This document shows, piece by piece, positions 18,628 to 56,635 of a stretch of DNA of 59,463 nt (positions are counted from its first letter, which is position 1; every line of letters begins with the position of its first letter). Location of the stretch: the sequence record MK672798.1; one strand, 5' to 3'. This stretch comes from Escherichia phage Skure. The translations under genes were made by a program, and so were the position numbers. The notes below the pieces were generated by a model. That model was not told the origin of the DNA. It ran no database searches and saw only the letters and a program-made list of their open reading frames with translations.

Positions 18628-19254
18628 GTGGGAGATATTATGGCGACTCGTTTATACGGCGTTTTATTGGATGGTTTGAATAAACCTATTATCAACGCCA
18701 CAGTAGCACTTATTTCGAAAGGAAATACTCTTACCGTATTAAACGGAAGCGAGGCAATATTCCGTACAGACGCACAAGGTGCGTATAACGTAACAGTTCA
18801 GACTGGTCGTTATAAAGTTATTATTGGACCGCAAGGTATTGAGCCATATAAAGCTGGTGAGATTGTTATTTATTCAGATAGTAAAGAAGGTTCACTAAAT
18901 AACTATCTTACTAACTGGGTCCCGGAGGAATTAACTCCGGAAGTAATTGCACAAGTAAAAGAACTTGTGGCTAATTCTGAAGCCTATGCACTCCAAGCAG
19001 GTCGATCTGCGGCTTCTGCACAAGCGGACGCTACCGATGCGCGTAACAGCAAGGCAGCTTCTGCAACGTCTGCGGCGGAAGCATTGACTTATAAAAATGA
19101 CTCAAAGGCAAACGCAGATGCAGCTAAACAAGCCCAAGCTGGAGCGGCGGGATCTGCTAACACTGCAACACAAGCTGTAACCACAGTTACTCAGCTTAAA
19201 GCTGATGTTGCTCAGTTAAAACAGATACTCAAGCAATTAAAGACTCCGCGTTGA
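18628..19254 (+). CDS. tail fibre protein, N-terminal segment
   Basis: 208 aa; Ala-rich coiled-coil C-terminal part shares composition with the start of the next ORF, which overlaps in the -1 frame. Confidence 0.55.
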   Translation: MGDIMATRLYGVLLDGLNKPIINATVALISKGNTLTVLNGSEAIFRTDAQGAYNVTVQTGRYKVIIGPQGIEPYKAGEIVIYSDSKEGSLNNYLTNWVPEELTPEVIAQVKELVANSEAYALQAGRSAASAQADATDARNSKAASATSAAEALTYKNDSKANADAAKQAQAGAAGSANTATQAVTTVTQLKADVAQLKQILKQLKTPR

Positions 19255-20612
19255 CTGAAGTCGCAACAGCTAAAGCCGACGCAGTCAAAGAAGTTAATAC
19301 AGCTAAAACATCGGGTGTTGCTGCGGTCAACACCGCTAAGACGGAAGCAATTAATGCAATAACCCCGCTAAAAGACGCTGCCGCAGCTTCTGCAACTCAA
19401 GCGGGTGCTAGTGCAACCGAAGCGGTGAAACAAGCTACAGCAGCCGCAGGCAGCGCTGCAACCGCAGGGCAGAAAGCTACCCTAGCAACAGAGGAAGCTA
19501 ACCGCGCGAAAGGGTATGCGGATTCAATGGACCCCTCCAGCATAGCTAAACTTGATGCTGAAAATACTTTTACCAAAAAGCAGAAGTTTAACCTTAATGC
19601 AGAATTTGGGGCAAACGCTGGTAATCCTCTTTTAATCAAGAGTGTTAACCCAACAATTAAATTTGAAGAAGTTGACGCCACAGGTGATGTAACTGGCTAT
19701 GTTATGGTCATGGAGGGCGGTAACATACAACTCCAGGAGAACGATACTGGTAGCACTAATGTTGTCTTTAACTACAGCGCTTCAGCTAAAACAGTCAGGC
19801 TACCATCTCACAAGACTGGTTCATTTGGGGAAGTTGGTCAGCTCAGGACAACTGGGAGTTATAGTCAAGACAGCATATTAATTAGAGCGACGGGAGCGGG
19901 TTCGGCTTACACAGCTTATACCGGATCTTCCAGTCCATCTATTGTAAGATGGCGATCAGGGCTTGCTACCAGCGGGGGCTATGCATTCTACAACTACAAT
20001 GAGGATGGCACGTATCATTCTACTCCGGTAGCCATTGGGGGTGCGGGTACTGGGATTGCAATTGCGTTCTCTACCAATATTACCGGGCGAATTACAGCAG
20101 GTGGCGGGGACGCAGGAACCGACGCTGCAACGTTTAGATCCAATGGTTCAGCGTCTTATGTTTGTAACTTAGCATCAAATGGAGTTATTCGAACCCGTGT
20201 GGGATTTAGCGACACTGTAGGGAGCTATGGATTTCAAACATATACCACAGCAGGTTCGCCTGAGTATTGGATTAGACTTCCGAGTGCTGGCGGAACCCTT
20301 GCACTGCAAGGAACATCGGGCTTAGCATATAAAAAGGCGATCAATGACGGTAATCCTATTGATGCTTTAAACCGCATCATGGCACAACGCATGGTCACTT
20401 TTATTTATAAGGACGATAAACAAGAAAGAATAAGATTTGGTATTATTGCAGAAGAATCGGAGAAAGTCACACCACAATATGTGAAGCACAATGAAGAGAT
20501 TTATGAGGATGTATACGAGGATGTTATACGAGGATGTACCTGTAGAGGTTACTGTAGATCATACCGACCCCGAAACTGGTATTACAGAACAAATCAAAGA
20601 ACAACGCATTGA
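19251..20612 (+). CDS. tail fibre protein (central/distal segment), TTG start in ORF track
   Basis: 453 aa; Ala-rich N-terminus, Gly/Ser/Thr-rich body; its C-terminus begins an intramolecular-chaperone-like region (GIIAEESEKVTPQYV); frame 0 is open from 19206. Confidence 0.6.
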   Translation: MTEVATAKADAVKEVNTAKTSGVAAVNTAKTEAINAITPLKDAAAASATQAGASATEAVKQATAAAGSAATAGQKATLATEEANRAKGYADSMDPSSIAKLDAENTFTKKQKFNLNAEFGANAGNPLLIKSVNPTIKFEEVDATGDVTGYVMVMEGGNIQLQENDTGSTNVVFNYSASAKTVRLPSHKTGSFGEVGQLRTTGSYSQDSILIRATGAGSAYTAYTGSSSPSIVRWRSGLATSGGYAFYNYNEDGTYHSTPVAIGGAGTGIAIAFSTNITGRITAGGGDAGTDAATFRSNGSASYVCNLASNGVIRTRVGFSDTVGSYGFQTYTTAGSPEYWIRLPSAGGTLALQGTSGLAYKKAINDGNPIDALNRIMAQRMVTFIYKDDKQERIRFGIIAEESEKVTPQYVKHNEEIYEDVYEDVIRGCTCRGYCRSYRPRNWYYRTNQRTTH

Positions 20613-20805
20613 ACAGAAATTTATTCGTCGTGAAGTCGAGAAGAAAATTGTTTCACAGAAGACCCGAGACAGACCTTCAATTGATACTAACCCTATTGTT
20701 ATGGACTTGATGGGCGCCACTCAAGCGCTCAAAGCAGAAATTGATAGTTTGAAAGCGGAGATAGCTGCGTTGAAGGGCAATGTGGTTAATAACAATCTGC
20801 CATAA
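20491..20805 (+). CDS. C-terminal intramolecular chaperone-like segment of the tail fibre, in +1 frame relative to 19251-20612
   Basis: Ends ...ALKAEIDSLKAEIAALKG, resembling the tail-fibre intramolecular chaperone C-terminus; frame joins the upstream ORF if one T is removed from the tandem repeat at 20505-20540. Confidence 0.45.
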   Translation: MKRFMRMYTRMLYEDVPVEVTVDHTDPETGITEQIKEQRIEQKFIRREVEKKIVSQKTRDRPSIDTNPIVMDLMGATQALKAEIDSLKAEIAALKGNVVNNNLP

Positions 20806-20816
20806 CCACAATAATT

Positions 20817-20845
20817 AAGGAGCCAAACGGCTCCTTTTTTTTTTT
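20817..20845 (+). terminator. rho-independent terminator after tail fibre genes
   Basis: AAGGAGCC-aaac-GGCTCCTT followed by ten T. Confidence 0.75.
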
Positions 20846-21066
20846 AGTTGTCACTTTCTCACCTACCTGCGACCGCACCGCGTTTAAACATAACTCCCTC
20901 CTTTTGTTCAAGTCGTGACGTCCATTGCATTATAAGGGTACCAATGCCAGGCTATTTACAATTTATTTACACGCATATCATGGTAAATAATATGTTAACG
21001 AGTATACTTACCAGCGTAACCCGTTGGTTACATCCGCTTAACAAATCCATATATGGAGATTTTCCT

Positions 21067-21774
21067 ATGTCTGACATGACTCTTTTACCTACTAATCTCG
21101 GTGGCGACGGTTTCGGTGGTGAAGCTGGTGCGGCTGGTATCGGTGGCGCGATCGGTGGCTTAATTGGTTCCTGGATCGGTAATGGTTGGGGTGGCAATGG
21201 TGGTTGGGGTGGTCGCGGTAACTTCGCTGGTCCGGTAGAAGTGCAAGCTTCTGTTGACACCAACGCAATTCTGCAAGCTATCAACAACGGTACTCTTCAG
21301 ACCATTCAGGGGTAGAACGGTACTAACCTGACTGTTGAGCGCTCCGCTGCTTCTACCTATAACGGTATTACTCAGCAGAACACTCAAAACCTGCTGGCTT
21401 CCGTTCAGGGCTTTGCTGGTCTGAACACGCAAATCCAGGGCGGCACCAGCCAAGTGCTCGCGGCTCTGTGTAACAACGAAGCAGCTAACATTACCCGCTC
21501 CTTCCAGGCTCAGTTAGAAGCTCAGAAGTGTTGCTGCGAAACCAACCTGAACATCGAGCGTCAAGCAGAAGCTACTCGTGCTCTCCTGCGCGATCAGCAC
21601 GCACAAGCGCAAGCTGTTCTGATCTGTGACCTGAAGTCCCAGTTGCAGGAAGCTCGCTTTGCAAACTCTCAGTTGGCGCAGACGGCTGGCCTTACCTGTA
21701 AAATCAATCAGGTTGAGCAGTTAGTTAACTTTAAACTGCCAACTCCTCCAACTCCTCCGACTGGCTGCTGCTAA
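21067..21774 (+). CDS. Gly-rich N-terminus / Cys-containing C-terminus protein interrupted by in-frame TAG at 21313-21315
   Basis: ATG 21067 with GGAG RBS; same frame open on both sides of the TAG; coding-like composition continues 46 codons to the annotated downstream ORF 21454-21774. Confidence 0.4.
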
Positions 21775-21845
21775 TCGTTGAAGTGCGGTTAAACTAAAGC
21801 GCCTTTCGCTCCTCCGCTTGGGGCGCTTTTAACAGAGGTAATATC

Positions 21846-22214
21846 ATGAGCCACATTAAAATTGCAACGATGGGAATGCCACGGGTCAAATTGCCTAAGG
21901 TTGCTTTACCTCGCATTAGCGTAGGTGAGCACCACCATGAACATGAGAAAGAGGAATATAAACATGCTCACTCTTATGCTCGAGATCATGAACATATGGC
22001 AGCTATGTCAAATGTTCTTGACCGGATGGAAGAACCTCCGCATACGTGGGCGGCGTACCACGACAAGCCCGGCGGTATGATGTCCATTGTTGAAATGGAA
22101 TACCGCGAATTAATGGAGTGTAAGAAAGAAGGCGACCGCGCAGGGATCATGAAAGAGTTGACTGATCTTGCCGCAGCTTGTACTTGCGCTCTTCAAAAAA
22201 TGAAAGATATGTAA
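21846..22214 (+). CDS. MazG-like nucleotide pyrophosphohydrolase (putative)
   Basis: 122 aa; EMEYRELMECKKEGDRAGIMKELTDLAA resembles the E-x-x-E...E-x-x-D metal-binding helices of all-alpha NTP pyrophosphatases. Confidence 0.35.
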   Translation: MSHIKIATMGMPRVKLPKVALPRISVGEHHHEHEKEEYKHAHSYARDHEHMAAMSNVLDRMEEPPHTWAAYHDKPGGMMSIVEMEYRELMECKKEGDRAGIMKELTDLAAACTCALQKMKDM

Positions 22215-23042: not shown

Positions 23043-23246
23043 ATGTGTGGTAATACTAACCGTTGCTGTCTAGGCAGTCCTGCAACACAAGCAGGTATAC
23101 TTCAGGGGCAATTAGCTCAAGCAGCGTGTAATTGCAAAACTTTTCAACCAGTAGCGCCAACTCCTGTGTTTGTGAATGCTTTTGCACCGCCTGTTTTCAA
23201 TACTTTTGGCGTATACCCATACGGTGCTTTCTTTCGTATATTCTAA
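23043..23246 (+). CDS. hypothetical Cys-containing small protein
   Basis: 67 aa, GGAGG RBS, last + strand gene before bidirectional terminator. Confidence 0.3.
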   Translation: MCGNTNRCCLGSPATQAGILQGQLAQAACNCKTFQPVAPTPVFVNAFAPPVFNTFGVYPYGAFFRIF

Positions 23247-30374: not shown

Positions 30375-30698
30375 TTATTCTCCTAACTCTGCTTTAACCG
30401 CTGCTTCGATATCTTCAAGGGCTTTAAGTTCATGAGTATAGTAACTCATATCATCTGGTTCAGTCGACTCTTCGTGCATGGTTTCTAATGCTTGACGCCA
30501 TATAGCTATGTGACCTTTAATCATACATGCAAGCGAACTATGACCTTTGTAAACTGCTTTGTCCACTTGCATCTGTGGGTTGAATTGCACAATAGCATCT
30601 TCAACAAGATCAATCAGATCATATGCTTGTTGAGGGACTGGGTTTCCAAATGCTTTATGAGCTATACCCATTCTTGCTAAATTACTTATCCTATTCAT
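30375..30698 (-). CDS. hypothetical protein inside deazaguanine cluster
   Basis: 107 aa, AAGGAG RBS, no recognisable motif. Confidence 0.45.
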   Translation of the reverse strand: MNRISNLARMGIAHKAFGNPVPQQAYDLIDLVEDAIVQFNPQMQVDKAVYKGHSSLACMIKGHIAIWRQALETMHEESTEPDDMSYYTHELKALEDIEAAVKAELGE

Positions 30699-31264
30699 TT
30701 CGATACTCCTTTCGATTGTTCAATTTCTAACGCACGCTGTGCGGACGCAATAATGTCTTTTAAGTCTTCTACCAGACTTTTATGCCCGCGCTCACCGGGT
30801 TGCAATGCTTTTTTGATAAGGTGTTGCAGAGCTGGGTTCGTTGTTTCCCAGGCGGTAAGAACATCATACACATCTACAACAATTGAAGCAACATGCCCGT
30901 CAATATCTTTACCGCGGATAAGGCGCTGGTATTTGGTCAGACGGTTATCTTCAGGATAGCTCTGGTAACGCGCTTCTGGAACCGTCATTGCAATTTCCAT
31001 CACTTCTTTAAACTTGTGCTCGGTTATTGGGTCTTTGCTGGTCATTTGTTGATTAATTGGCTCTTCAATGATGTAACGCCAAGCAGTCACATCAAATTGT
31101 GTGGTCATTGGGATTGGCGAATATGACCATATCCAACCAGCTCCGCGATGGTTTCTTAAAACGTTACCATTTCTTAGTTTCACTTCAAAATGGTCATTCT
31201 GAAGATAGACGGGCATCCCTTTGCCGTCGTGTTTGTGCCAAATTTTATCCAGATTATCTTTCAT
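30695..31264 (-). CDS. hypothetical protein inside deazaguanine cluster
   Basis: Start placed at internal ATG (MKDNLDK) one nt after upstream stop; about 189 aa; no recognisable motif. Confidence 0.45.
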   Translation of the reverse strand: MKDNLDKIWHKHDGKGMPVYLQNDHFEVKLRNGNVLRNHRGAGWIWSYSPIPMTTQFDVTAWRYIIEEPINQQMTSKDPITEHKFKEVMEIAMTVPEARYQSYPEDNRLTKYQRLIRGKDIDGHVASIVVDVYDVLTAWETTNPALQHLIKKALQPGERGHKSLVEDLKDIIASAQRALEIEQSKGVSK

Positions 31265-31265
31265 T

Positions 31266-31745
31266 TTATGCTCTCGCTGTACGTGAATGAACTTCGTAAA
31301 CAACCCAAAGGATAGCTGATGCTGTGAACTTACTTAAGCTCATTGCTACCATCGATCCCGGATTTACAATACCAATAATACTTAAGAATACAATGGAGTC
31401 AATTGGTACTGCGACCAAAGAGCTGATAAATACTCGTTGATGGAAAGGCTTCTTGGTGACCGTGTATACCACATAGTCAGCAAACTCGCTAAGTGCAAAT
31501 GACGCAACGGATGCAACTACAACCGCAGGATCCCCGAACACCCAGCTAAGAATGCAACCGACAATCATTGCAGGGATAACGCCTTTGCCAGCGTTACGCT
31601 GTGCGTAGTCACGCAGGACGAAGATAATACCTACGAAGAAAGCCATCATGGGTACTACGCCAAGCGGCGTGTTAAGTATTGGAAGGTAGGAAAAGCCCAG
31701 GTTTACGAACGTAATTGCAGCCAGGTAAGCAACGATAAATTTCAT
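31266..31745 (-). CDS. integral membrane protein, putative queuosine-precursor (preQ0/preQ1) transporter of the YhhQ/COG1738 type
   Basis: 159 aa, about 5 TM helices; sits between queC and queD; assigned by context, not by motif. Confidence 0.4.
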   Translation of the reverse strand: MKFIVAYLAAITFVNLGFSYLPILNTPLGVVPMMAFFVGIIFVLRDYAQRNAGKGVIPAMIVGCILSWVFGDPAVVVASVASFALSEFADYVVYTVTKKPFHQRVFISSLVAVPIDSIVFLSIIGIVNPGSMVAMSLSKFTASAILWVVYEVHSRTARA

Positions 31746-46297: not shown

Positions 46298-46326
46298 AAA
46301 GGGCCGAAAGGCCCTTTATTTATTTG
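46298..46326. terminator. bidirectional terminator between primase gene (-) and small + strand gene
   Basis: AAAGGGCC-gaaa-GGCCCTTT followed by ATTTATTT on + strand. Confidence 0.6.
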
Positions 46327-48659
46327 CTTAAGTCCTTGAAAACACTCTCAATTGACTCGTCTATATACCATCCCAATCCCCTGAAATTACGCTTCAACGC
46401 ATCTTCACGCGTGACTGGAACGAGCGCACCCATGTCTACAAGTTGCTTGATGGTAAGGTCTGTTGCAGTACCTGCTCCCATCCTGTGATTCTTGAATGCT
46501 GCTAGACCGTAGGTTCTGCGTGTGATAGTTGCCTTTGGAATAATACCGTCAACGCGCAGCTCCTTACGATCACATGCAATCTTACCGCCAAGATAATCTT
46601 TGCAGACCTGACAGATAGCCTTCACACGTGTTTCGTCATCACCGCCAATAGTACCTTTTTCCCATGCGTTGATCATGATGTCTTGTCCATGCGTAACAAA
46701 ATCTACCGCCCATTGCATGTGGTTTGGTTGCACCACAGGATTGATCCAGTTTTCCCCCACCGCTAACAGAGACGCAAGACGCAGAGCTTTAAGGTGAGCA
46801 CGGTTCCACGGCTGACGGATTGCTTCGTCTTTGGTTGCGTTAATGTGTTCATCACATAACAGGTTAAACTCCCGTTCAATCCTTTCAGCTTCAGGACTTA
46901 ACTGGACTGTGACAGTTTGAAACTTCGCCATTGTTACTAAGGTGTGGTTAACAAGATGGCACACCATGTCCTTTAACTGCTGGGGCATTATAATCTCAGG
47001 GTTTTCGTTTGCAGGAACTCGATCTCCTTCATATTGCACAATGTGGAAACGGGACAAGAAACCGTCTTCCATCATTTCACGAGTTAATGCTTCAAAGAAA
47101 GTGTCCGGTGTTGTTTCTCCCAGCACGCTGAACGCCACCCCTTCCATTGTTTTGGTATTATTAGCCTTATCAGAATATCCAATACCGCCAACAACATCCA
47201 TCGCACCAGATTTTTGATACACATCTGTGATAGTTTGCTTCAGGGTATAGTTTGCAGTGCCAGGCTGAGCTGTCGCCATACCTTTAATGGTTTTACCAAA
47301 CTCACCGTTAATATTCACAAACGAAGTATGATCCGCAAAACTTTTACGCAAGGCAGGACCGGAAGCATAGTTAGTCATATCTACAAATTCATGCACTTGC
47401 GGTAATTGCTCGCCTACTTGCTTACAGATATAACTAGGCCCAGCGTGAAGCATTTCTTTACCCACACCAGATCGGGCAATAAGGACAAAGTAACCGTTCA
47501 GCCCTGTGTTGGTGATAGTATTCCATACCTTACCGCATACGCCGGACAAGAATGCTAACGATGCAGTGATTGCAATTTCTTTCACCGGACGCTGCGATGC
47601 TTTGTAGATATACTTCGCAAGCTCACCAGCAAGACCCGGCGGCCATTCAATAGCTGTTGCATCAATGGACGTGCTTTCTGCTACTACTATTTCACCGGAC
47701 GGGCTGACTGTGGTTACAGGCATTTCCGTTACCTGCTGCATTGTGCTGTGTGCGGCTTGCATACGGGCAGCGTAATCCCGCGCCAGCGCCGCTACGTTTT
47801 CCTGGGCAATGCGCTCACGTTCCATGCGACCGCGACACATACGCAAGCAACGGTCAATATGAACATTGTTCTTATTAGCCTTCTCACGTTTGCCCAGTGC
47901 ACTATAACGGAACAGACGACGACATTGCTCATTACTTTCCGTGTAGAATGCATACATAGAAATAAGGGCAAGGTCTGCTTCAGACTGGGAAGGGAATCCC
48001 ATTTCAACCCATTCACCGTTAAATAACCGTGCATACTTATCGCCGTTGTCTGCTTCAAGTGCACGCTGATGAATAGTTGCATCATCTTCTACCGGATCTT
48101 TTTCTACCAGTTCAATTTCATATGTCTTGCGCTGAAGATCAATTTCATTCACAAGCATAGTAAGGTAATGATCACGTTCTGCAACTGGTTTGTTGTAAAC
48201 GGGATTGCCCGTGCAGATAATAAAACGCTCCTGACTATAAACCTCGACACCATCACGTCGACGACCTTTACCGATGTTACCTCTTAACCACAGGTGAACA
48301 CCCAAGCCTGAGCGACTCACTTCGGTGTAAGTATCGAACGCAGTCATGATCTGTTCGAAGCGGCGCAACTGCTCCGGCGTCGTGTGCTTCTTGGGGTCCG
48401 GTTCATTGGTTGCATTCTTCACATCCAGGTCGATGCAGGTGAACGGGTCTTGTGCAGTAAGCACAAAGCCAATATAAGGTTTATTGAAATGAGCAGCACA
48501 ACCTTTGGCAGCTTCAAACGTCATAAGCATATCCGGATCGGTAACGTCCGCCGCCATCAAACGTCCAATATCGTTATCCCATACGAGCGGCTTTTTATCC
48601 GCATCGGCGACCGCCCATTGTGGGAAAGCTTTAATTTCAGCGGGAAACAGTTCCATCAT
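46320..48659 (-). CDS. DNA primase / replication initiation protein (primase-polymerase-like N-terminal region)
   Basis: 779 aa; SRSGLGVHLW resembles the primase-polymerase active-site region; ARSGVGKE nucleotide-binding-like segment; next to candidate origin. Confidence 0.45.
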   Translation of the reverse strand: MMELFPAEIKAFPQWAVADADKKPLVWDNDIGRLMAADVTDPDMLMTFEAAKGCAAHFNKPYIGFVLTAQDPFTCIDLDVKNATNEPDPKKHTTPEQLRRFEQIMTAFDTYTEVSRSGLGVHLWLRGNIGKGRRRDGVEVYSQERFIICTGNPVYNKPVAERDHYLTMLVNEIDLQRKTYEIELVEKDPVEDDATIHQRALEADNGDKYARLFNGEWVEMGFPSQSEADLALISMYAFYTESNEQCRRLFRYSALGKREKANKNNVHIDRCLRMCRGRMERERIAQENVAALARDYAARMQAAHSTMQQVTEMPVTTVSPSGEIVVAESTSIDATAIEWPPGLAGELAKYIYKASQRPVKEIAITASLAFLSGVCGKVWNTITNTGLNGYFVLIARSGVGKEMLHAGPSYICKQVGEQLPQVHEFVDMTNYASGPALRKSFADHTSFVNINGEFGKTIKGMATAQPGTANYTLKQTITDVYQKSGAMDVVGGIGYSDKANNTKTMEGVAFSVLGETTPDTFFEALTREMMEDGFLSRFHIVQYEGDRVPANENPEIIMPQQLKDMVCHLVNHTLVTMAKFQTVTVQLSPEAERIEREFNLLCDEHINATKDEAIRQPWNRAHLKALRLASLLAVGENWINPVVQPNHMQWAVDFVTHGQDIMINAWEKGTIGGDDETRVKAICQVCKDYLGGKIACDRKELRVDGIIPKATITRRTYGLAAFKNHRMGAGTATDLTIKQLVDMGALVPVTREDALKRNFRGLGWYIDESIESVFKDLSK

Positions 48660-48925
48660 TTACCTTCGTTAACAATCACTTTTAACAGAGATGTAATTAC
48701 ATCCTTGACTTTATCGATAGTGACGAAAGCTGTATCCATTGTGGCATATGTGCCAATATACTGATACTCATCCATGACTCTAATAAATGCGCGATATTGT
48801 GTAATCCCACCTTTTAATTCCACCTCTTCAAAATAAGCGCATACATCCTCAAATTGTCCTTCTCCCAGCCATGGAGCAGGGAATCGAATCATCTCTTTAC
48901 CTATATATGGTATTTTTCTAGCCAT
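48656..48925 (-). CDS. hypothetical protein
   Basis: Start at internal ATG (MARKIPYI) with GGAGG RBS. Confidence 0.4.
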   Translation of the reverse strand: MARKIPYIGKEMIRFPAPWLGEGQFEDVCAYFEEVELKGGITQYRAFIRVMDEYQYIGTYATMDTAFVTIDKVKDVITSLLKVIVNEGK

Positions 48926-49217
48926 AGATCTGTTTCCTCCGCCATTCTTCGTATGCTGAATTATTTGCGTCATATACTTCGCAAGCGTCTTTCATGCTGT
49001 CATACAGTCCAAGGAAAGTTCGCCTTGTTTCTCCACCTGCATCTACCCATGTTAATCGGGCGAGCCATTTACCAGTTTTATAATCGAAAGTAACTCCCTC
49101 ACGCCCGCTCACATTTTCCCGCGGCACTCGGGGCTTTCGGCGTGCGAGTCCACGACCTTTGAAATTACTACCCGGGACAGTCCTGCACTTACGACCCACG
49201 ACCAACCTCCGGCACAA
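48918..49217 (-). CDS. AP2-like DNA-binding domain ORF, possibly a degenerate homing-endonuclease fragment
   Basis: GVTFDYKTGKWLARLTWVDAGGETRRTFLGLYDSMKDACEVY resembles the AP2 domain of HNH endonucleases; Arg-rich N-terminus, no HNH motif. Confidence 0.3.
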   Translation of the reverse strand: MCRRLVVGRKCRTVPGSNFKGRGLARRKPRVPRENVSGREGVTFDYKTGKWLARLTWVDAGGETRRTFLGLYDSMKDACEVYDANNSAYEEWRRKQIYG

Positions 49218-49404
49218 CCCGGCCAGCGTGCAACATTAAGACAGGTTCTGCAACTGCACGAACATAGACATACACGTTAGCAATTTTAACTTCGCCCGGC
49301 AGCTTACCGCGAAGCGAACATAATTTGCGACGACTAAGACCGAAGCGGTTTTCAATTTCTGATGTGGTTATGTATTTAAGATCAAATTCTTTTTGACAGT
49401 CCAT
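49189..49404 (-). CDS. small protein with HTH-like segment
   Basis: 71 aa; AGGAGG RBS; ITTSEIENRFGLSRRKL resembles a helix-turn-helix; C-terminal part overlaps the next ORF out of frame. Confidence 0.35.
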   Translation of the reverse strand: MDCQKEFDLKYITTSEIENRFGLSRRKLCSLRGKLPGEVKIANVYVYVRAVAEPVLMLHAGRVVPEVGRGS

Positions 49405-49560
49405 ACCTACCTCCTAACAGCACTATACACAATCCATAGTAAGCCAGCCACAATTATTCCACCTGAAGTTATGATGTGAGCGGATTGTTAACATATAACC
49501 ACATGTGATGGAAAGTTTTGGGTAGGAATAGTTGGTGCTCCGCAGTTTGCACAATGTGAC

Positions 49561-49600
49561 GGAAAGTTTTGTGAGTTTTGCAAAGTTTTGCGAAGTTTTG
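49561..49600. repeat. four tandem (A)AGTTTTG repeats at about 10-bp spacing
   Basis: ggaaagttttg tgagttttg caaagttttg cgaagttttg; a fifth copy at 49513-49520. Confidence 0.6.
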
Positions 49601-50075
49601 TGGTGCCACTGTTGCTAAAAACTTTAATAAAAACAATAAGTTGGTGCAGTAAGTTTTTGCGTTTTGGGGTAAAACGCATTTTTTACCCTAATACCCTAAT
49701 CCCGACTGTTAGTAAAAAACGTATATAAATCAATAAGATAGATACTAAATGAATAGTGAATGGAATGGGTAGAAATCCAAATGATGGAAGTGGAATAAAT
49801 TATTCCTACTTGATGGAATAATGGAATCGGTACTCTGGAGCGCAAAAACCTAAAACTTTCAGTCAACAGACTAAAAACGGATAGAAACTAAAAGTTAATA
49901 AGTAATACCATAAATATATATAAAATAAGGATTTATTAGTAATGTATATAGTACCTATTGGTATTTATTTGAATGTTTTTGGGTCTGCAATAAAAAGTCG
50001 CAAAACTCACAAAAAGTGAAAGAATACAATTCGTGACAGGATTGTTAATGGAATATGGTGTATGGATATACAGTA

Positions 50076-50113
50076 TTATTCCAGATTCCGGAATAATTGG
50101 AATAATGGAATAA
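50076..50113. repeat. GGAATAA repeat cluster with embedded 10-bp palindrome ATTCCGGAAT
   Basis: TTATTCC-agattcc-GGAATAA-tt-GGAATAA-t-GGAATAA; related palindrome GGAATAA-a-TTATTCC at 49792-49806. Confidence 0.6.
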
Positions 50114-50233
50114 ATTATTGAACTATTGTGGTCGGAAGGTATATCAAGCTATAATGCGCTTAATCGCGGGATATTGGAGGAGGACTTTATTGCGCGGTTA
50201 ACCGGACCAGTAGGAGGGCTGGCCCGGAGTAGT

Positions 50234-50566
50234 TTAGAGCTGTACAGGTATGAAGTGGGCTAATGTGTCGTCGGACATGATACCCGACAATTTTTCGCTT
50301 ACCCATTCGGACCAAATGCTATCCGGTTCCTGGCGGTGCACAAACCAGATTTCGGAAGTGCCTTCTTTGCGCATCGGCTGCACTTCTACAAGGAACTTGT
50401 CCTGCATGAGGCGGGTGAAGCAGACGCTGGTCATTGGAACCGGCTTTTCGTGTTTATTGTAATAAGGAGTCAGTAATTTATTTCCGAAGTTGGCAACTTC
50501 ATAAACTGTTCCTTTGCGAAGCCCTCTGATGTCTGTGTAAGAGCGGATAAATGTTCTCATGTTCAC
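50234..50566 (-). CDS. hypothetical protein
   Basis: 110 aa ORF, first gene downstream (on - strand) of the iteron region. Confidence 0.45.
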   Translation of the reverse strand: MNMRTFIRSYTDIRGLRKGTVYEVANFGNKLLTPYYNKHEKPVPMTSVCFTRLMQDKFLVEVQPMRKEGTSEIWFVHRQEPDSIWSEWVSEKLSGIMSDDTLAHFIPVQL

Positions 50567-50610
50567 TCCTAGGGCTCCCGCAGAAGCCCGTTGGTTGATG
50601 TGGTTATAGA

Positions 50611-51225
50611 TTATGCGTCCAGTCCGTTATATTTGCGCCAGGCGTAGAACTGAATGGCGACTGTTGTCCCGTTGTGAGAAGGCATTGCCGCTTTCATTTC
50701 TTTCAGCTCCGGCGTGCGGCCCAGTTTGGCTAAAAGTTTGTCGCCCATTGCCCACACTTCGGCGGTTTTTCCTTTCAGAGGCTTGCGAGCGCCATTTTTG
50801 AAATCACAGCGAGCAGCTTTTGCATCCTGTTTTGGCGCAGCAGCTTTTGGCTCTTCAATTTTGATTTCAGAAACCTGCGTGGCAGCTTTTGCATGTTTCA
50901 TATCTTTCTCTTCCTCCTGCTCCAGAGCTTCGAGGCAGCTTTTGACGATTTCCGGATTTACCATCGGGCGCAGTACCGAGACGCTGGCAGCTGGCGCGGC
51001 GGTTGGTGCTGGGACTTTCTGCTCCGGTTGTTGCGCTTTTTTATGGTCGCGCAGTACCTGAAGGACTTCCTTCTCGACGATGTAAAAACCGATCTCGTCC
51101 TGATGGATAAGTTGTTCGTGTGCATCGCGTGCAACCTGGCCCCAACGGGTCTTAAGGGCGCGGCGTGCATTCGTTTTCATGGTGTAACGCATTTTGTCCT
51201 GTTCGCGGTGAGTTACTTTAGACAT
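50611..51225 (-). CDS. hypothetical protein with C-terminal domain paralogous to the 33760-34563 protein
   Basis: Start at internal ATG (MSKVTHREQ) with AAGGAG RBS; C-terminus ...VAIQFYAWRKYNG. Confidence 0.45.
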   Translation of the reverse strand: MSKVTHREQDKMRYTMKTNARRALKTRWGQVARDAHEQLIHQDEIGFYIVEKEVLQVLRDHKKAQQPEQKVPAPTAAPAASVSVLRPMVNPEIVKSCLEALEQEEEKDMKHAKAATQVSEIKIEEPKAAAPKQDAKAARCDFKNGARKPLKGKTAEVWAMGDKLLAKLGRTPELKEMKAAMPSHNGTTVAIQFYAWRKYNGLDA

Positions 51226-51298
51226 GGTATAGCTCCTTTCATTAATATTAGTTTGCTTATTACTGCCCACCGTAATGATGAGCAGTGTATAAGAAAAC

Positions 51299-51547
51299 TT
51301 ACTGCACGATTGCTACGAAATCGACGGTTGCGATATCCATACTTGCGAAAGCAACAATGCTGTAGTCGGTGTCGTTGTCCGCGTTAAAAGCTTTGAGGAA
51401 CTGCTGTACTGCTGCTTTATGGTTAAGCGTTACGTCGATAGCATAGTCCCAGCTATAGACTTTGCGCTTGCCAAAACCTTTAACTGCAATGCGAGCGCTT
51501 TTAGTGTTGGTCGGTGCCAAAAATTTGGTGACGATAGAAGTAGCCAT
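51299..51547 (-). CDS. hypothetical protein
   Basis: 82 aa ORF. Confidence 0.4.
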   Translation of the reverse strand: MATSIVTKFLAPTNTKSARIAVKGFGKRKVYSWDYAIDVTLNHKAAVQQFLKAFNADNDTDYSIVAFASMDIATVDFVAIVQ

Positions 51548-56278: not shown

Positions 56279-56635
56279 ATGAGAAGCGGGCGATGTCGTT
56301 TTGTATTTTTTATTGGGCGTTACGCGATAAAAATACCTCGTCTAAATAGTTACGAAGGGTTCCTACAAGGCTTATTAAGTAATATTACAGAGCGGAAATG
56401 GCGTAATTATCCTGATAAACACTTGTGTCCTGTAGTGTATGCTAATTGTATTGGTTTAATTGTGATAATGCTAAGGGCGCAGGAAGTAACAGATTTTGAA
56501 AAGTTTAAAAAGGATTTGGATGTCATATGCAACGATGAAAAAGGGCTTGGCGAAGAGTTTTATCGCTGGGATGGTACAGCAAAAAACTTTGGATACCTTA
56601 ACGGTAAGTTAGTTAAAGTAGATTACGGTGATTAA
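56279..56635 (+). CDS. hypothetical protein
   Basis: 118 aa ORF. Confidence 0.4.
   Translation: MRSGRCRFVFFIGRYAIKIPRLNSYEGFLQGLLSNITERKWRNYPDKHLCPVVYANCIGLIVIMLRAQEVTDFEKFKKDLDVICNDEKGLGEEFYRWDGTAKNFGYLNGKLVKVDYGD

What the first reader, a model, noticed from the sequence alone, without database searches (positions are those of the whole stretch)
49440..50230. About 790 bp noncoding iteron-rich, AT-rich region: candidate origin of replication
No convincing ORF is present. There are four to five copies of AAGTTTTG at helical (about 10 bp) spacing at 49513-49600. Several direct and inverted GGAATAA/TTATTCC repeats occur at 49758-49830 and 50076-50113, including the palindrome ATTCCGGAAT. An extremely AT-rich stretch at 49890-49980 could serve as an unwinding element. 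The region sits immediately downstream of the primase gene on the plus strand.
Basis: partly seen in the sequence, partly recalled or inferred. Interest (0 to 1): 0.6.

Follow-up and report, generated by a model that had tools for sequence, protein, structure and literature searches.

The report
Candidate phage replication origin with iterons
This 830-bp gene-free stretch of an E. coli Seuratvirus phage is very probably its origin of replication: short repeats flank an AT-rich core, and across related phages their sequence changes in step with the DNA-binding tail of the phage primase-helicase.

Summary
The window is a Seuratvirus (Queuovirinae) E. coli siphophage. Positions 49405-50233 are a real non-coding gap with 35% G+C, against 45% for the window.

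AGTTTTG has 6 of its 19 window hits here, and GGAATAA has 8 of 19. One detail was wrong. The primase gene (46320-48659) is on the minus strand, and the gap lies upstream of its operon, not downstream of it.

The gap holds 13 copies of (A/G)GTTTT(T)G in three clusters. Two of these clusters bracket a 107-bp block that is 80% A+T.

In 26 related genomes and contigs the repeat covaries, without exception, with the last ~118 residues of the primase:
- AGTTTTG with tail type A
- AGTTTAT with type B
- ATTTTAT with types D and E
- GTTTATA with type C

The AT-rich core and the primase N-terminal 300 residues stay nearly identical throughout.

The primase models as an AEP prim-pol, an MCM-like AAA+ ATPase and a C-terminal winged helix. 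No other nearby ORF and no other replication protein follows this pattern.

Best reading: an iteron-type origin loaded by a self-loading primase-helicase, as in SaPI Rep/ori or P4 alpha/ori. This is a new member of a known kind, and it is untested experimentally. A second repeat family (GGAATAA) remains unexplained.

The parts
49405..50233 (.). Whole non-coding gap (829 bp, 35% G+C) between the 110-aa ORF (50234-50566, minus) and the first ORF of the primase operon (49189-49404, minus).
49503..49666 (+). Proximal array of family-1 repeats (putative iterons). Seven copies read on the + strand, so inverted relative to primase sense: 49514-49520, 49565-49571, 49574-49580, 49584-49590, 49594-49600, 49652-49659, 49660-49666. 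Spacing is 9-10 bp within 49565-49600. Two copies carry the longer form TGAYGGAAAGTTTTG (49506-49520 and 49557-49571).
49843..49867 (-). Middle pair of family-1 repeats on the minus strand (GTTTTTG 49843-49849, AAGTTTTA 49851-49858), next to the near-invariant GTTGAC (49862-49867; GTTGACTG in most relatives). They sit directly beside the AT-rich block.
49868..49974 (.). AT-rich block of 107 bp, 80% A+T: the candidate DNA-unwinding element. About 75 bp of it is nearly invariant between phages that carry different iteron types.
49975..50016 (-). Distal family-1 cluster. Three direct copies on the minus strand (49992-49998, 50001-50007, 50010-50016) and one oppositely oriented copy (49975-49981, + strand) that abuts the AT-rich block.
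49758..49830 (.). Central cluster of family-2 repeats (TGGAAT / GGAATAA / TTATTCC, direct and inverted).
50046..50113 (.). Distal cluster of family-2 repeats, including the palindrome ATTCCGGAAT (50085-50094) and tandem GGAATAAT units.
49453..49480 (-). Weak sigma-70-like promoter with an extended -10 (CTCACA-16-TGgAATAAT), facing the primase operon. Its -10 overlaps a family-2 copy (49454-49460). This is a consensus match only.
   Evidence: 2 promoter-like sites found against 4.1 expected by chance
49658..49690 (+). Hairpin followed by a T-run (terminator-like on the + strand). It is present only in the closest relatives, so it is not a conserved feature.
50202..50227 (-). GC-rich hairpin immediately after the stop codon of the 110-aa ORF, probably the terminator of the upstream transcription unit. 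It is annotated as a terminator in phage SA80RD and is replaced by different hairpins in more distant relatives.
49189..49404 (-). 71-aa ORF (phrog_11967), a possible small DNA-binding protein and the first gene of the primase operon. A homologue lies upstream of the primase gene in every Seuratvirus-type locus compared and in Vid5 and PSTCR7. Its sequence types cut across the iteron types.
46320..48659 (-). 779-aa primase-helicase: AEP prim-pol plus helix-bundle domain (aa 1-~300), MCM-like AAA+ ATPase (aa ~300-660), C-terminal winged helix.
46323..46679 (-). Codons for primase residues 661-779, the winged-helix C-terminal domain. Its sequence type covaries with the iteron sequence, which makes it the putative origin-recognition domain.

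Best explanation
The gap is the phage's origin of replication. It is an iteron-type origin recognised by the phage's own primase-helicase.

Proposed mechanism:
1. The C-terminal winged-helix domain of the 779-aa protein binds the (A/G)GTTTT(T)G repeats. The protein is an AEP prim-pol, an MCM-like AAA+ ATPase and a winged helix.
2. Oppositely oriented repeats on either side of the 107-bp AT-rich block (49843-49858 and 49975-50016) place AAA+ rings so that this block melts. The seven-copy array at 49514-49666 adds cooperative binding.
3. The helicase loads itself, its prim-pol domain makes the first primers, and the phage DNA polymerase extends them.

Shown here:
- The anatomy of the repeats and the AT-rich block.
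- The uniqueness of the cluster in the genome.
- The covariation of repeat sequence with the primase C-terminal domain.
- The predicted winged-helix fold.

Inferred, not shown:
- Physical binding.
- Melting at the AT-rich block.
- Self-loading.
- Replication start at this site.

Because the gap also lies just upstream of the primase operon, the same binding may autoregulate that operon. The interleaved GGAATAA repeats probably bind a second, unidentified protein.
For: 1. Clustering. AGTTTTG has 6 of its 19 window hits in the gap (P about 5e-8). Thirteen family members can be laid out in three clusters. This is the only non-coding 7-mer cluster in the 59-kb window.

2. Layout. In primase-sense orientation the order is: three direct copies, one inverted copy, the AT-rich block, two direct copies, a variable module, then inverted copies. 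Alleles A, B, D and C keep this layout; in E only two of the three distal direct copies and no clear middle pair are recognisable.

3. Concerted switching.
- All 11 genomes or contigs with primase tail type A carry AGTTTTG.
- All 12 with type B carry AGTTTAT at the same aligned positions.
- D and E (tails 95% identical to each other) both carry ATTTTAT.
- Type C carries GTTTATA.
- There are no exceptions.
- A-versus-B differences are concentrated in the repeat columns (Fisher P 2e-7 to 4e-10). About 75 bp of the AT-rich core is nearly invariant.

4. Which domain tracks the motif.
- aa 1-300 are 92-100% identical among A, B, D and E.
- aa 301-660 are 84% identical between A and D.
- aa 661-778 are 37-47% identical between types.
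The motif therefore follows the last ~118 residues.

6. No other candidate binder.
- Within +/-5 kb only the primase segregates by type.
- Against phage Seurat, every other replication protein is 94-100% identical. These are the polymerase, the protein Seurat annotates as processivity factor, the helicase, the Cas4-like exonuclease, Sak4, the ligase and RNase H. The exception is the DUF669 SSB-like protein, which could not be scored because the crude ORF set picked the overlapping opposite-strand frame. The primase is 77% identical.
- The remaining divergent segments checked do not follow A/B.

7. The global minimum of cumulative GC skew is at 49463, inside the gap. It lies about 2-3 kb from the switch in gene orientation.

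8. Precedent. SaPI Rep/PriRep5 binds iterons on both sides of an AT-rich region through a C-terminal winged helix (PMC9371898). The P4 alpha protein and pRN1 ORF904 have the same primase-helicase-winged-helix order (PMC2777425). The primase profile matches the PriRep5 primase domain at E 4e-32.
Against: - There is no experimental evidence of binding, melting or initiation.
- The covariation involves linked loci about 3 kb apart. There are only four or five independent tail/motif types, so phylogenetic non-independence is not fully excluded.
- Types B and C have tails only 47% identical, yet nearly the same motif. The tail sequence does not map one-to-one onto the motif.
- GC skew in a 59-kb phage is confounded by transcription direction, and a second local minimum lies near 53 kb.
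- The position upstream of the primase operon fits an operator function equally well.
- In relatives such as SA80RD and Greed, some repeat copies lie downstream of the annotated promoter, in the leader.
- More distant relatives with homologous primases (Vid5, PSTCR7, NP1) show no comparable cluster within 4-5 kb of the gene.
- The genome-wide check against other A/B-segregating genes used one complete type-B genome and spot checks, not all genomes.
Confidence: 0.75

Rival explanations
1. The gap is a transcriptional control region only. It holds the promoter(s) and operators of the primase operon. The primase winged helix and/or other phage proteins bind the repeats to regulate expression, and replication starts elsewhere or by recombination.
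For: - The gap lies between a terminator-like hairpin and the first gene of the operon.
- A promoter-like site overlaps a GGAATAA copy.
- In SA80RD-type relatives the annotated promoter overlaps family-2 repeats, and family-1 copies follow it in the leader.
- The phage encodes recombination proteins such as Sak4, a Cas4-like exonuclease and RusA.
Against: - A replicative primase-helicase that binds oppositely oriented repeats around an 80% A+T block is the defining arrangement of an origin.
- The cluster is unique in the genome.
- The GC-skew minimum falls in the gap.
- Promoter-like hits are no more frequent than chance: 2 found against 4.1 expected.
- Regulation and origin function are not mutually exclusive.
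Confidence: 0.12
2. The repeats are single-strand priming signals. The prim-pol catalytic or helix-bundle domain reads them as template recognition sites, like NrS-1 5'-TTTGGTTA-3' or GTG(A/G), rather than as duplex sites for an initiator.
For: - The N-terminal domain is an NrS-1-type prim-pol with a helix-bundle domain.
- The NrS-1 enzyme recognises TTTGGTTA and GTGA/GTGG (PMC8718748).
- The window repeats include TTTTGTGA and TTTTGTGG.
Against: - Residues 1-300 are 100% identical between types A and B and 92-93% identical to D and E, yet the motif differs.
- The motif follows the winged-helix tail instead.
- Copies occur in both orientations, in a fixed duplex layout.
Confidence: 0.05
3. The gap encodes a small RNA or a small protein, and the repeats are incidental to it.
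For: - KS_W4 annotators called three small ORFs in the gap.
- Both strands fold better than shuffled sequence, with z-scores of -4.9 and -4.7.
- A + strand hairpin with a T-run lies at 49658-49690.
Against: - No Rfam match at E <= 1 and no tRNA.
- No ORF is conserved in frame across relatives.
- The folding signal is equal on both strands, as expected from DNA-level inverted repeats.
- The hairpin is absent from STP-SP5 and from the other module types.
Confidence: 0.03
4. The gap is a mosaic recombination junction, or debris left by module exchange, with no function of its own.
For: - The region is clearly mosaic. Left and right halves have different distributions among relatives, and whole modules are swapped.
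- HNH endonuclease genes lie nearby in relatives.
Against: - The same repeat layout is kept in four of the five allele types and largely in the fifth.
- The motif switches in concert at many copies.
- The AT-rich core is nearly invariant.
All three indicate selection.
Confidence: 0.03

Closest known systems
SaPI / PICI Rep-ori system, especially SaPI5 PriRep5 (PDB 7OLA; PMC9371898)
   Same: - One polypeptide of about 780-790 aa carries an AEP-type primase, a hexameric AAA+ helicase and a C-terminal winged helix that recognises the origin.
- The origin is a set of short repeats on both sides of an AT-rich region, with copies pointing in opposite directions.
- Specificity differs between otherwise related elements.
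- The N-terminal primase domain is homologous by sequence (profile E 4e-32).
   Different: - The SaPI ori lies immediately downstream of rep. Here the origin is 0.75 kb upstream of the primase start codon, ahead of three small ORFs.
- The helicase and the tail show no detectable sequence similarity to PriRep5.
- The ATPase models closest to MCM rather than to SF3 helicases.
- The host element is a virulent siphophage, not a satellite island.
- A second repeat family is interleaved.
Satellite phage P4 alpha protein with ori and crr (own knowledge; domain order as summarised in PMC2777425)
   Same: - A multifunctional primase, helicase and C-terminal winged-helix origin-binding protein of almost the same size.
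- It binds short octamer-type repeats located in more than one cluster.
   Different: - The P4 alpha primase is DnaG/TOPRIM-type and its helicase is SF3. Here the primase is an AEP prim-pol and the ATPase is MCM-like.
- P4 ori and crr are kilobases apart. Here the clusters span about 500 bp.
Archaeal plasmid pRN1 replication operon orf56/orf904 (PMC2777425, PMC4234260)
   Same: - A small DNA-binding protein gene is followed by a prim-pol, helicase and winged-helix replication protein in one operon.
   Different: - The pRN1 origin is downstream of orf904, and its cognate site was not identified.
- The pRN1 helicase is SF3.
- The small ORF here (phrog_11967) is not shown to be related to ORF56.
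Phage NrS-1 primase-polymerase (PDB 6A9W, 6K9A; PMC8718748, PMC7102993)
   Different: - NrS-1 template recognition is ascribed to the helix-bundle domain. Here the repeat motif changes while that domain stays identical.
- Seuratviruses also encode a separate DNA polymerase.
Lambdoid O protein / ori iterons (own knowledge)
   Same: Initiator specificity and iteron sequence are exchanged together among closely related phages, which gives distinct replication specificities.
   Different: - Lambda iterons lie inside the O gene. O is not a helicase or a primase and needs P and the host DnaB.
- Here the two covarying parts are about 3 kb apart, separated by conserved DNA.

Membership tests
Iteron-type replication origin | A cluster of several copies of a short motif, confined to one locus of the replicon | tested here: met
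   There are 13 family-1 copies in 49514-50016. AGTTTTG has 6 of its 19 window hits in the gap (P about 5e-8). It is the only non-coding 7-mer cluster in the window.
Iteron-type replication origin | An adjacent AT-rich DNA-unwinding element | tested here: met
   49868-49974 is 80% A+T and is bracketed by oppositely oriented copies. Actual unwinding was not tested.
Iteron-type replication origin | The repeats are bound by a replicon-encoded initiator | not testable with these tools
   Only indirect support is available. The motif covaries with the primase winged-helix tail in 26 of 26 genomes or contigs.
Iteron-type replication origin | The sequence supports initiation of replication in cis | not testable with these tools
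   This needs marker-frequency analysis, 2D gels or a plasmid assay. The GC-skew minimum at 49463 is only suggestive.
SaPI/PICI Rep (PriRep)-ori | An initiator-helicase with a C-terminal winged-helix origin-recognition domain | tested here: met
SaPI/PICI Rep (PriRep)-ori | At least two iterons on each side of the AT-rich region, pointing in opposite directions | tested here: met
   Two copies on the minus strand sit at 49843-49858. One + strand copy and three minus-strand copies sit at 49975-50016. These flank 49868-49974.
SaPI/PICI Rep (PriRep)-ori | The ori lies immediately downstream of the rep ORF | tested here: not met
   The gap is upstream of the operon, 0.75 kb from the primase start codon.
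SaPI/PICI Rep (PriRep)-ori | Homology of the whole Rep protein | tested here: inconclusive
   Only the primase domain matches 7OLA (phmmer E 7e-11, profile E 4e-32, positions 9-253). The helicase and the tail are not matched by sequence, and 7OLA is not among the top fold hits.
P4 alpha / ori-crr | DnaG/TOPRIM-type primase domain and SF3 helicase | tested here: not met
   The N-terminus is an AEP prim-pol (NrS-1-like). The ATPase is closest to MCM.
NrS-1-type primase-polymerase | AEP prim-pol fold with an NrS-1-like helix-bundle domain | tested here: met
NrS-1-type primase-polymerase | The repeats serve as helix-bundle-domain template recognition sites | tested here: not met
   The motif switches between types A and B while aa 1-300 are 100% identical.
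DnaA-dependent origin | DnaA boxes (TTATCCACA) in the origin | tested here: not met
   No box with one mismatch or fewer lies in 49300-50300, and there is no IHF consensus site.
Lambda-type ori | Iterons located inside the initiator gene | tested here: not met
   The iterons are intergenic.

The most novel reading that the evidence does not exclude
Seuratvirus origins may be two-key modular origins.

- One key is the primase winged-helix tail with its iterons. At least four specificities exist. They are exchanged as a split, non-contiguous pair across about 3 kb of conserved DNA.
- The other key is an independent repeat family interleaved in the same origin: GGAATAA, ATAGTG or ATAGGG. It is exchanged together with a different protein. 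For ATAGTG and ATAGGG this appears to be an uncharacterised ~250-aa ORF. For GGAATAA the partner is unknown.

Such a combination would create many mutually incompatible replication specificities within one genus. It could serve in competition between co-infecting phages, or in escape from satellites or defences that target origins.
Probability: 0.3. Interest if true: 0.65.

Novelty: new member of a known kind. Interest (0 to 1): 0.45.

Why it matters
Searches of the held paper library found no described origin of replication for Seuratvirus or other Queuovirinae phages. These are common E. coli phages, used in the BASEL collection and known for 7-deazaguanine DNA.

The finding gives a precise and testable map. 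It names an unwinding block, 13 candidate initiator sites, and a ~118-residue domain predicted to read them.

It also provides natural specificity variants (A, B, C, D/E) that allow direct swap experiments. This is useful for phage engineering, for building phage-derived replicons, and for studying how prim-pol/MCM-like/winged-helix proteins load themselves.

The mechanism itself follows known precedents, so the surprise for a specialist is moderate.

Tried and rejected
- **Rfam and tRNA.** Rfam at E <= 1 over 48500-51500 and a tRNA scan of the whole window found nothing.
- **Promoter and terminator scans.** The sigma-70 and terminator scans gave no more hits than chance.
- **Small ORFs in the gap.** Nine candidates were found. 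None is conserved in frame in STP-SP5, L018, CSP1, Seurat, KS_A8, yong3 or L019.
- **RNA structure.** Both strands have similar z-scores (-4.9 and -4.7). The signal therefore reflects DNA-level inverted repeats, not a strand-specific RNA.
- **Host-factor sites.** No DnaA box or IHF consensus is present.
- **NrS-1-style template recognition by the prim-pol or helix-bundle domain.** Rejected, because that domain is identical in types A and B.
- **The 67-71-aa phrog_11967 protein as the family-1 binder.** Rejected. Its four sequence types cut across the A/B split.
- **The same protein as the binder of GGAATAA.** Not supported. L018 keeps GGAATAA with a homologue only 42% identical, and L019 pairs a G-like small protein with ATAGGG repeats.
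- **The AP2-like 99-aa ORF as the binder of GGAATAA.** There is no clean co-occurrence.
- **Other genes segregating with A/B.** None was found within +/-5 kb or among the replication genes when compared with Seurat. Segment 30375-31303 is 100% identical to CAjan, a type-B phage. ORF 56279-56635 has no match at all.
- **Equivalent clusters near the primase of distant relatives.** Nothing was found in Vid5, PSTCR7 or NP1. JenK1 gave only a suggestive TTTTCGC repeat set.
- **Searches for further primase alleles.** IMG/VR and metagenome contigs yielded only types A and B again.
- **Pfam and NCBIfam.** They gave no assignment for the small neighbouring ORFs or the ~250-aa ORF.
Full report
**What the window is.**
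- The large ORFs have the layout of a complete siphophage genome. Terminase, portal, head and tail genes lie on the + strand at 0.1-22.8 kb. A long minus-strand block runs from 23.3 to 52 kb and holds the replication and 7-deazaguanine genes. A + strand block follows from 53 kb.
- The 829-bp query matches nine Escherichia Seuratvirus phages over its full length at 96-98% identity. These include SLUR25, GottfriedDienst, KS_W4 and VogelGryff. Its right half also matches many more Seuratviruses.
- Taxonomy from the records: Caudoviricetes; Queuovirinae; Seuratvirus.

**The observation.**
- 49405-50233 lies between two minus-strand ORFs, 49189-49404 (71 aa) and 50234-50566 (110 aa).
- The gap is 35% G+C against 45% for the window.
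- Exact AAGTTTTG occurs at 49513, 49564, 49583 and 49593, and GAGTTTTG at 49573.
- AGTTTTG has 6 of its 19 window hits in the gap (0.18 expected, P about 5e-8). GGAATAA has 8 of 19 (P about 7e-12).
- 49868-49974 is 80% A+T.
The primase ORF is 46320-48659 on the minus strand. The gap lies upstream of an operon made of the 71-aa ORF, a 99-aa ORF with a weak AP2-like match, a 105-aa ORF and the primase.
- A GC-rich hairpin (50202-50227) follows the stop codon of the upstream 110-aa ORF. It is annotated as a terminator in SA80RD.

**Not a gene.**
- Rfam gave nothing at E <= 1, and no tRNA was found.
- Nine ORFs of 25 aa or more exist in the gap. In relatives they are interrupted by stops or match only as fragments in shifting frames.
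- RNA folding is better than shuffled controls on both strands to the same degree (z -4.9 and -4.7). This is what DNA-level inverted repeats produce.

**Anatomy.** Read in the sense of the primase operon, the order is as follows.
1. The terminator-like hairpin.
2. A conserved stretch of about 70 bp.
3. A distal cluster of GGAATAA-type repeats (50046-50113).
4. Three direct family-1 copies (50016-49992), then one inverted copy (49981-49975).
5. The AT-rich block (49974-49868).
6. The near-invariant GTTGAC (GTTGACTG in most relatives), followed by two direct family-1 copies (49858-49843).
7. A central GGAATAA cluster (49830-49758).
8. Seven inverted family-1 copies (49666-49514).
9. A weak extended -10 promoter-like site (49480-49453) and the operon.

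The thirteen family-1 copies give the consensus (A/G)(A/G)GTTTT(T)G(C/T/G)G. A scan of the whole window for 7-mers repeated in 300-bp windows finds no other non-coding cluster.

**The key result: repeat sequence tracks the primase tail.**
- I compared the equivalent gap in 16 Seuratvirus genomes (analysed).
- Their primases fall into two groups relative to the window. Type A is 91-99.6% identical and type B is 77% identical. Hafnia phage yong3, at 64%, is type C.
- All nine type-A gaps carry (A)GTTTTG and no AGTTTAT. All six type-B gaps carry AGTTTAT(A) and no AGTTTTG. Yong3 carries GTTTATA(G/C).
- The copies occupy the same aligned positions. The distal cluster reads GGTTTTG-yG-AGTTTTG-sG-ACTTTTT...GAC-CCAAAAAC in A. 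It reads GGTTTAT-GA-AAATTTAT-AG-AGTTTAT...GAC-CATAAAC in B.
- The adjacent ~75 bp of AT-rich sequence is almost invariant.
- In three A/B pairs, differences are concentrated in the repeat columns (Fisher P 2e-7 to 4e-10), even with an imperfect mask.
- A protein search found two more primase alleles in metagenome contigs: D (P0002, locus L018) and E (P0003, locus L019). Both carry (A/G)TTTTAT(A/G) in the same layout, although in E only two distal direct copies and no clear middle pair are recognisable.
- Ten further IMG/VR and metagenome loci with a complete primase are type A with AGTTTTG or type B with AGTTTAT.
- The total is 26 genomes or contigs with no exception.

**Which part of the primase.**

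| Residues | Domain | Identity between types |
|---|---|---|
| 1-300 | prim-pol and helix bundle | A-B 100%; 92-95% among A, B, D, E |
| 301-660 | ATPase | A-D 84%, A-E 80%, A-B 71% |
| 661-778 | C-terminal tail | A-B 42%, A-D 37%, A-E 37%, B-D 47%; D-E 95%, A-STP-SP5 87% |

- D has an A-like ATPase but a different motif. D and E share both the tail and the motif. The motif therefore follows the last ~118 residues.
- Caveat: B and C have tails only 47% identical but nearly the same motif. Different tails can read similar sites.

**Fold of the primase.**
- The full-length AlphaFold2 model has pLDDT 89.5.
- By sequence, the best solved relative is the primase domain of SaPI5 PriRep5, PDB 7OLA (phmmer E 7e-11, profile E 4e-32).
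- Pfam finds DUF3987 and the NrS-1 helix-bundle domain.

**Is another protein the binder?**
- The 67-71-aa phrog_11967 protein has four sequence types. Two occur with primase A and two with primase B, and the closest pairs cross the A/B line.
- Of 18 window ORFs between 43.2 and 53.5 kb, only the primase separates A, B, C and D/E.
- Against the complete Seurat genome (type B), the other replication proteins are 94-100% identical. These are the polymerase, the protein Seurat annotates as processivity factor, the helicase, the Cas4-like exonuclease, Sak4, the ligase and RNase H. The DUF669 SSB-like protein could not be scored, because the crude ORF set picked the overlapping opposite-strand frame. 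The primase is 77% identical.
- The other divergent segments are either 100% identical to a type-B phage (30375-31303 against CAjan) or unique to this phage (56279-56635).

**Other support and limits.**
- The cumulative G-C count has its global minimum at 49463, inside the gap, and its maximum at 23134. The minimum is about 2-3 kb from the switch in gene orientation. Skew in a phage this size is confounded by transcription, and a second local minimum lies near 53 kb.
- No DnaA box or IHF site is present, so nothing points to host DnaA.
- Promoter-like hits are at chance level.

**Mechanism proposed.**
- The winged helix of the primase-helicase binds the family-1 repeats. Oppositely oriented copies on both sides of the AT-rich block position the AAA+ rings that melt it. 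The helicase loads itself, and the fused prim-pol primes.
- This is how the SaPI Rep proteins are described: a C-terminal winged helix, iterons on each side of an AT-rich region pointing in opposite directions, and no separate loader (PMC9371898).
- It also fits the primase-helicase-winged-helix order of P4 alpha and pRN1 ORF904 (PMC2777425).
- Binding, melting and initiation are inferred, not shown. Because the site is just upstream of the operon, the same binding could also autoregulate it.

**Comparison with known systems.**
- It works like SaPI Rep/ori and P4 alpha/ori, but it is not a clear member of either family.
- The origin is upstream of the gene, not immediately downstream as in SaPIs.
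- The primase is an AEP, not DnaG-type as in P4.
- The ATPase is closest to MCM.
- Only the primase domain is homologous by sequence to PriRep5.
- From my own knowledge, fusions of an AEP primase with an MCM-like ATPase are known from a Bacillus cereus prophage (BcMCM). I did not test this relationship.
- The held paper library contains nothing on an origin in Seuratvirus or its relatives.

**The second repeat family.**
- GGAATAA/TTATTCC repeats occur in the window group, STP-SP5, L018 and the distal part of Dru_SM1.
- Elsewhere they are replaced by ATAGTG arrays (CSP1, Greed, SA80RD, KS_A8, KurtStettler, phiG7, L083) or ATAGGG arrays (Seurat, CAjan, slur01, L019). These arrays have a conserved layout of three direct and three inverted copies.
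- ATAGTG versus ATAGGG follows the type of a ~250-aa ORF (phrog_27223, no Pfam match) that the window lacks. It does not follow the small phrog_11967 protein.
- The binder of GGAATAA in this phage is unresolved.

**Verdict.** The finding is real, and its main interpretation is well supported by comparative and structural evidence. It is a new member of a known kind of system. My confidence that it is the origin is about 0.75.

Noticed in passing
window 49454-49460, 49758-49830, 50046-50113; relatives L004, L006, L008, L019: A second repeat family (GGAATAA/TTATTCC) is interleaved with the putative iterons. In relatives it is replaced en bloc by ATAGTG or ATAGGG arrays with the same layout of three direct and three inverted copies. 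The ATAGTG/ATAGGG choice follows the type of an uncharacterised ~250-aa ORF (phrog_27223) that is absent from this phage. The binder of GGAATAA is unknown.
   Followed up: partly
window 49189-49404 (minus); L010:3757-3990, L011:3786-4001: A 67-77-aa protein (phrog_11967, annotated 'regulatory protein cox' in Hafnia phage yong3) lies upstream of the primase gene in every Seuratvirus-type locus compared, directly or with small ORFs between. Sequence-similar homologues lie directly upstream in Vid5 and PSTCR7. It may be a conserved partner of the primase. It has no Pfam or NCBIfam match.
   Followed up: partly
window 46320-48659 (minus): The primase gene is itself a mosaic. The first 300 codons are 100% identical at the protein level between types A and B, and the rest is 40-85% identical. 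The sharp return to about 95-99% nucleotide identity comes right after the stop codon. The neighbouring small ORFs are swapped independently of the primase.
   Followed up: yes
L129:1132-1974 (Nonagvirus JenK1, 3 kb upstream of its primase): An 843-bp gap carries direct and inverted TTTTCGC/GCGAAAA-type repeats followed by an AT-rich stretch. It may be the equivalent origin in the sister genus. Vid5, PSTCR7 and NP1 showed no such cluster within 4-5 kb of their primase.
   Followed up: partly
window 30375-31303: This segment, annotated in relatives as hypothetical proteins and a preQ0 transporter, is 100% identical to phage CAjan. It is poorly conserved in the window's otherwise closest relatives. 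This is a recent mosaic exchange within the 7-deazaguanine gene block.
   Followed up: partly
window 56279-56635 (+): This 118-aa ORF has no megablast match in the 50,697-record phage collection and no tblastn match in phage Seurat.
   Followed up: no
window 19251-22214 (+): The ORFs downstream of the central tail fibre gene have no counterpart in phage Seurat. This is probably the exchangeable receptor-binding module described for these genera (PMC8594841).
   Followed up: no
window 50202-50227; L005, L013, L018, L019: The hairpin after the 110-aa ORF is replaced by different GC-rich hairpins in STP-SP5, Dru_SM1, L018 and L019. The structure is conserved but the sequence is not. This fits a terminator that insulates the origin region from upstream transcription.
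   Followed up: partly
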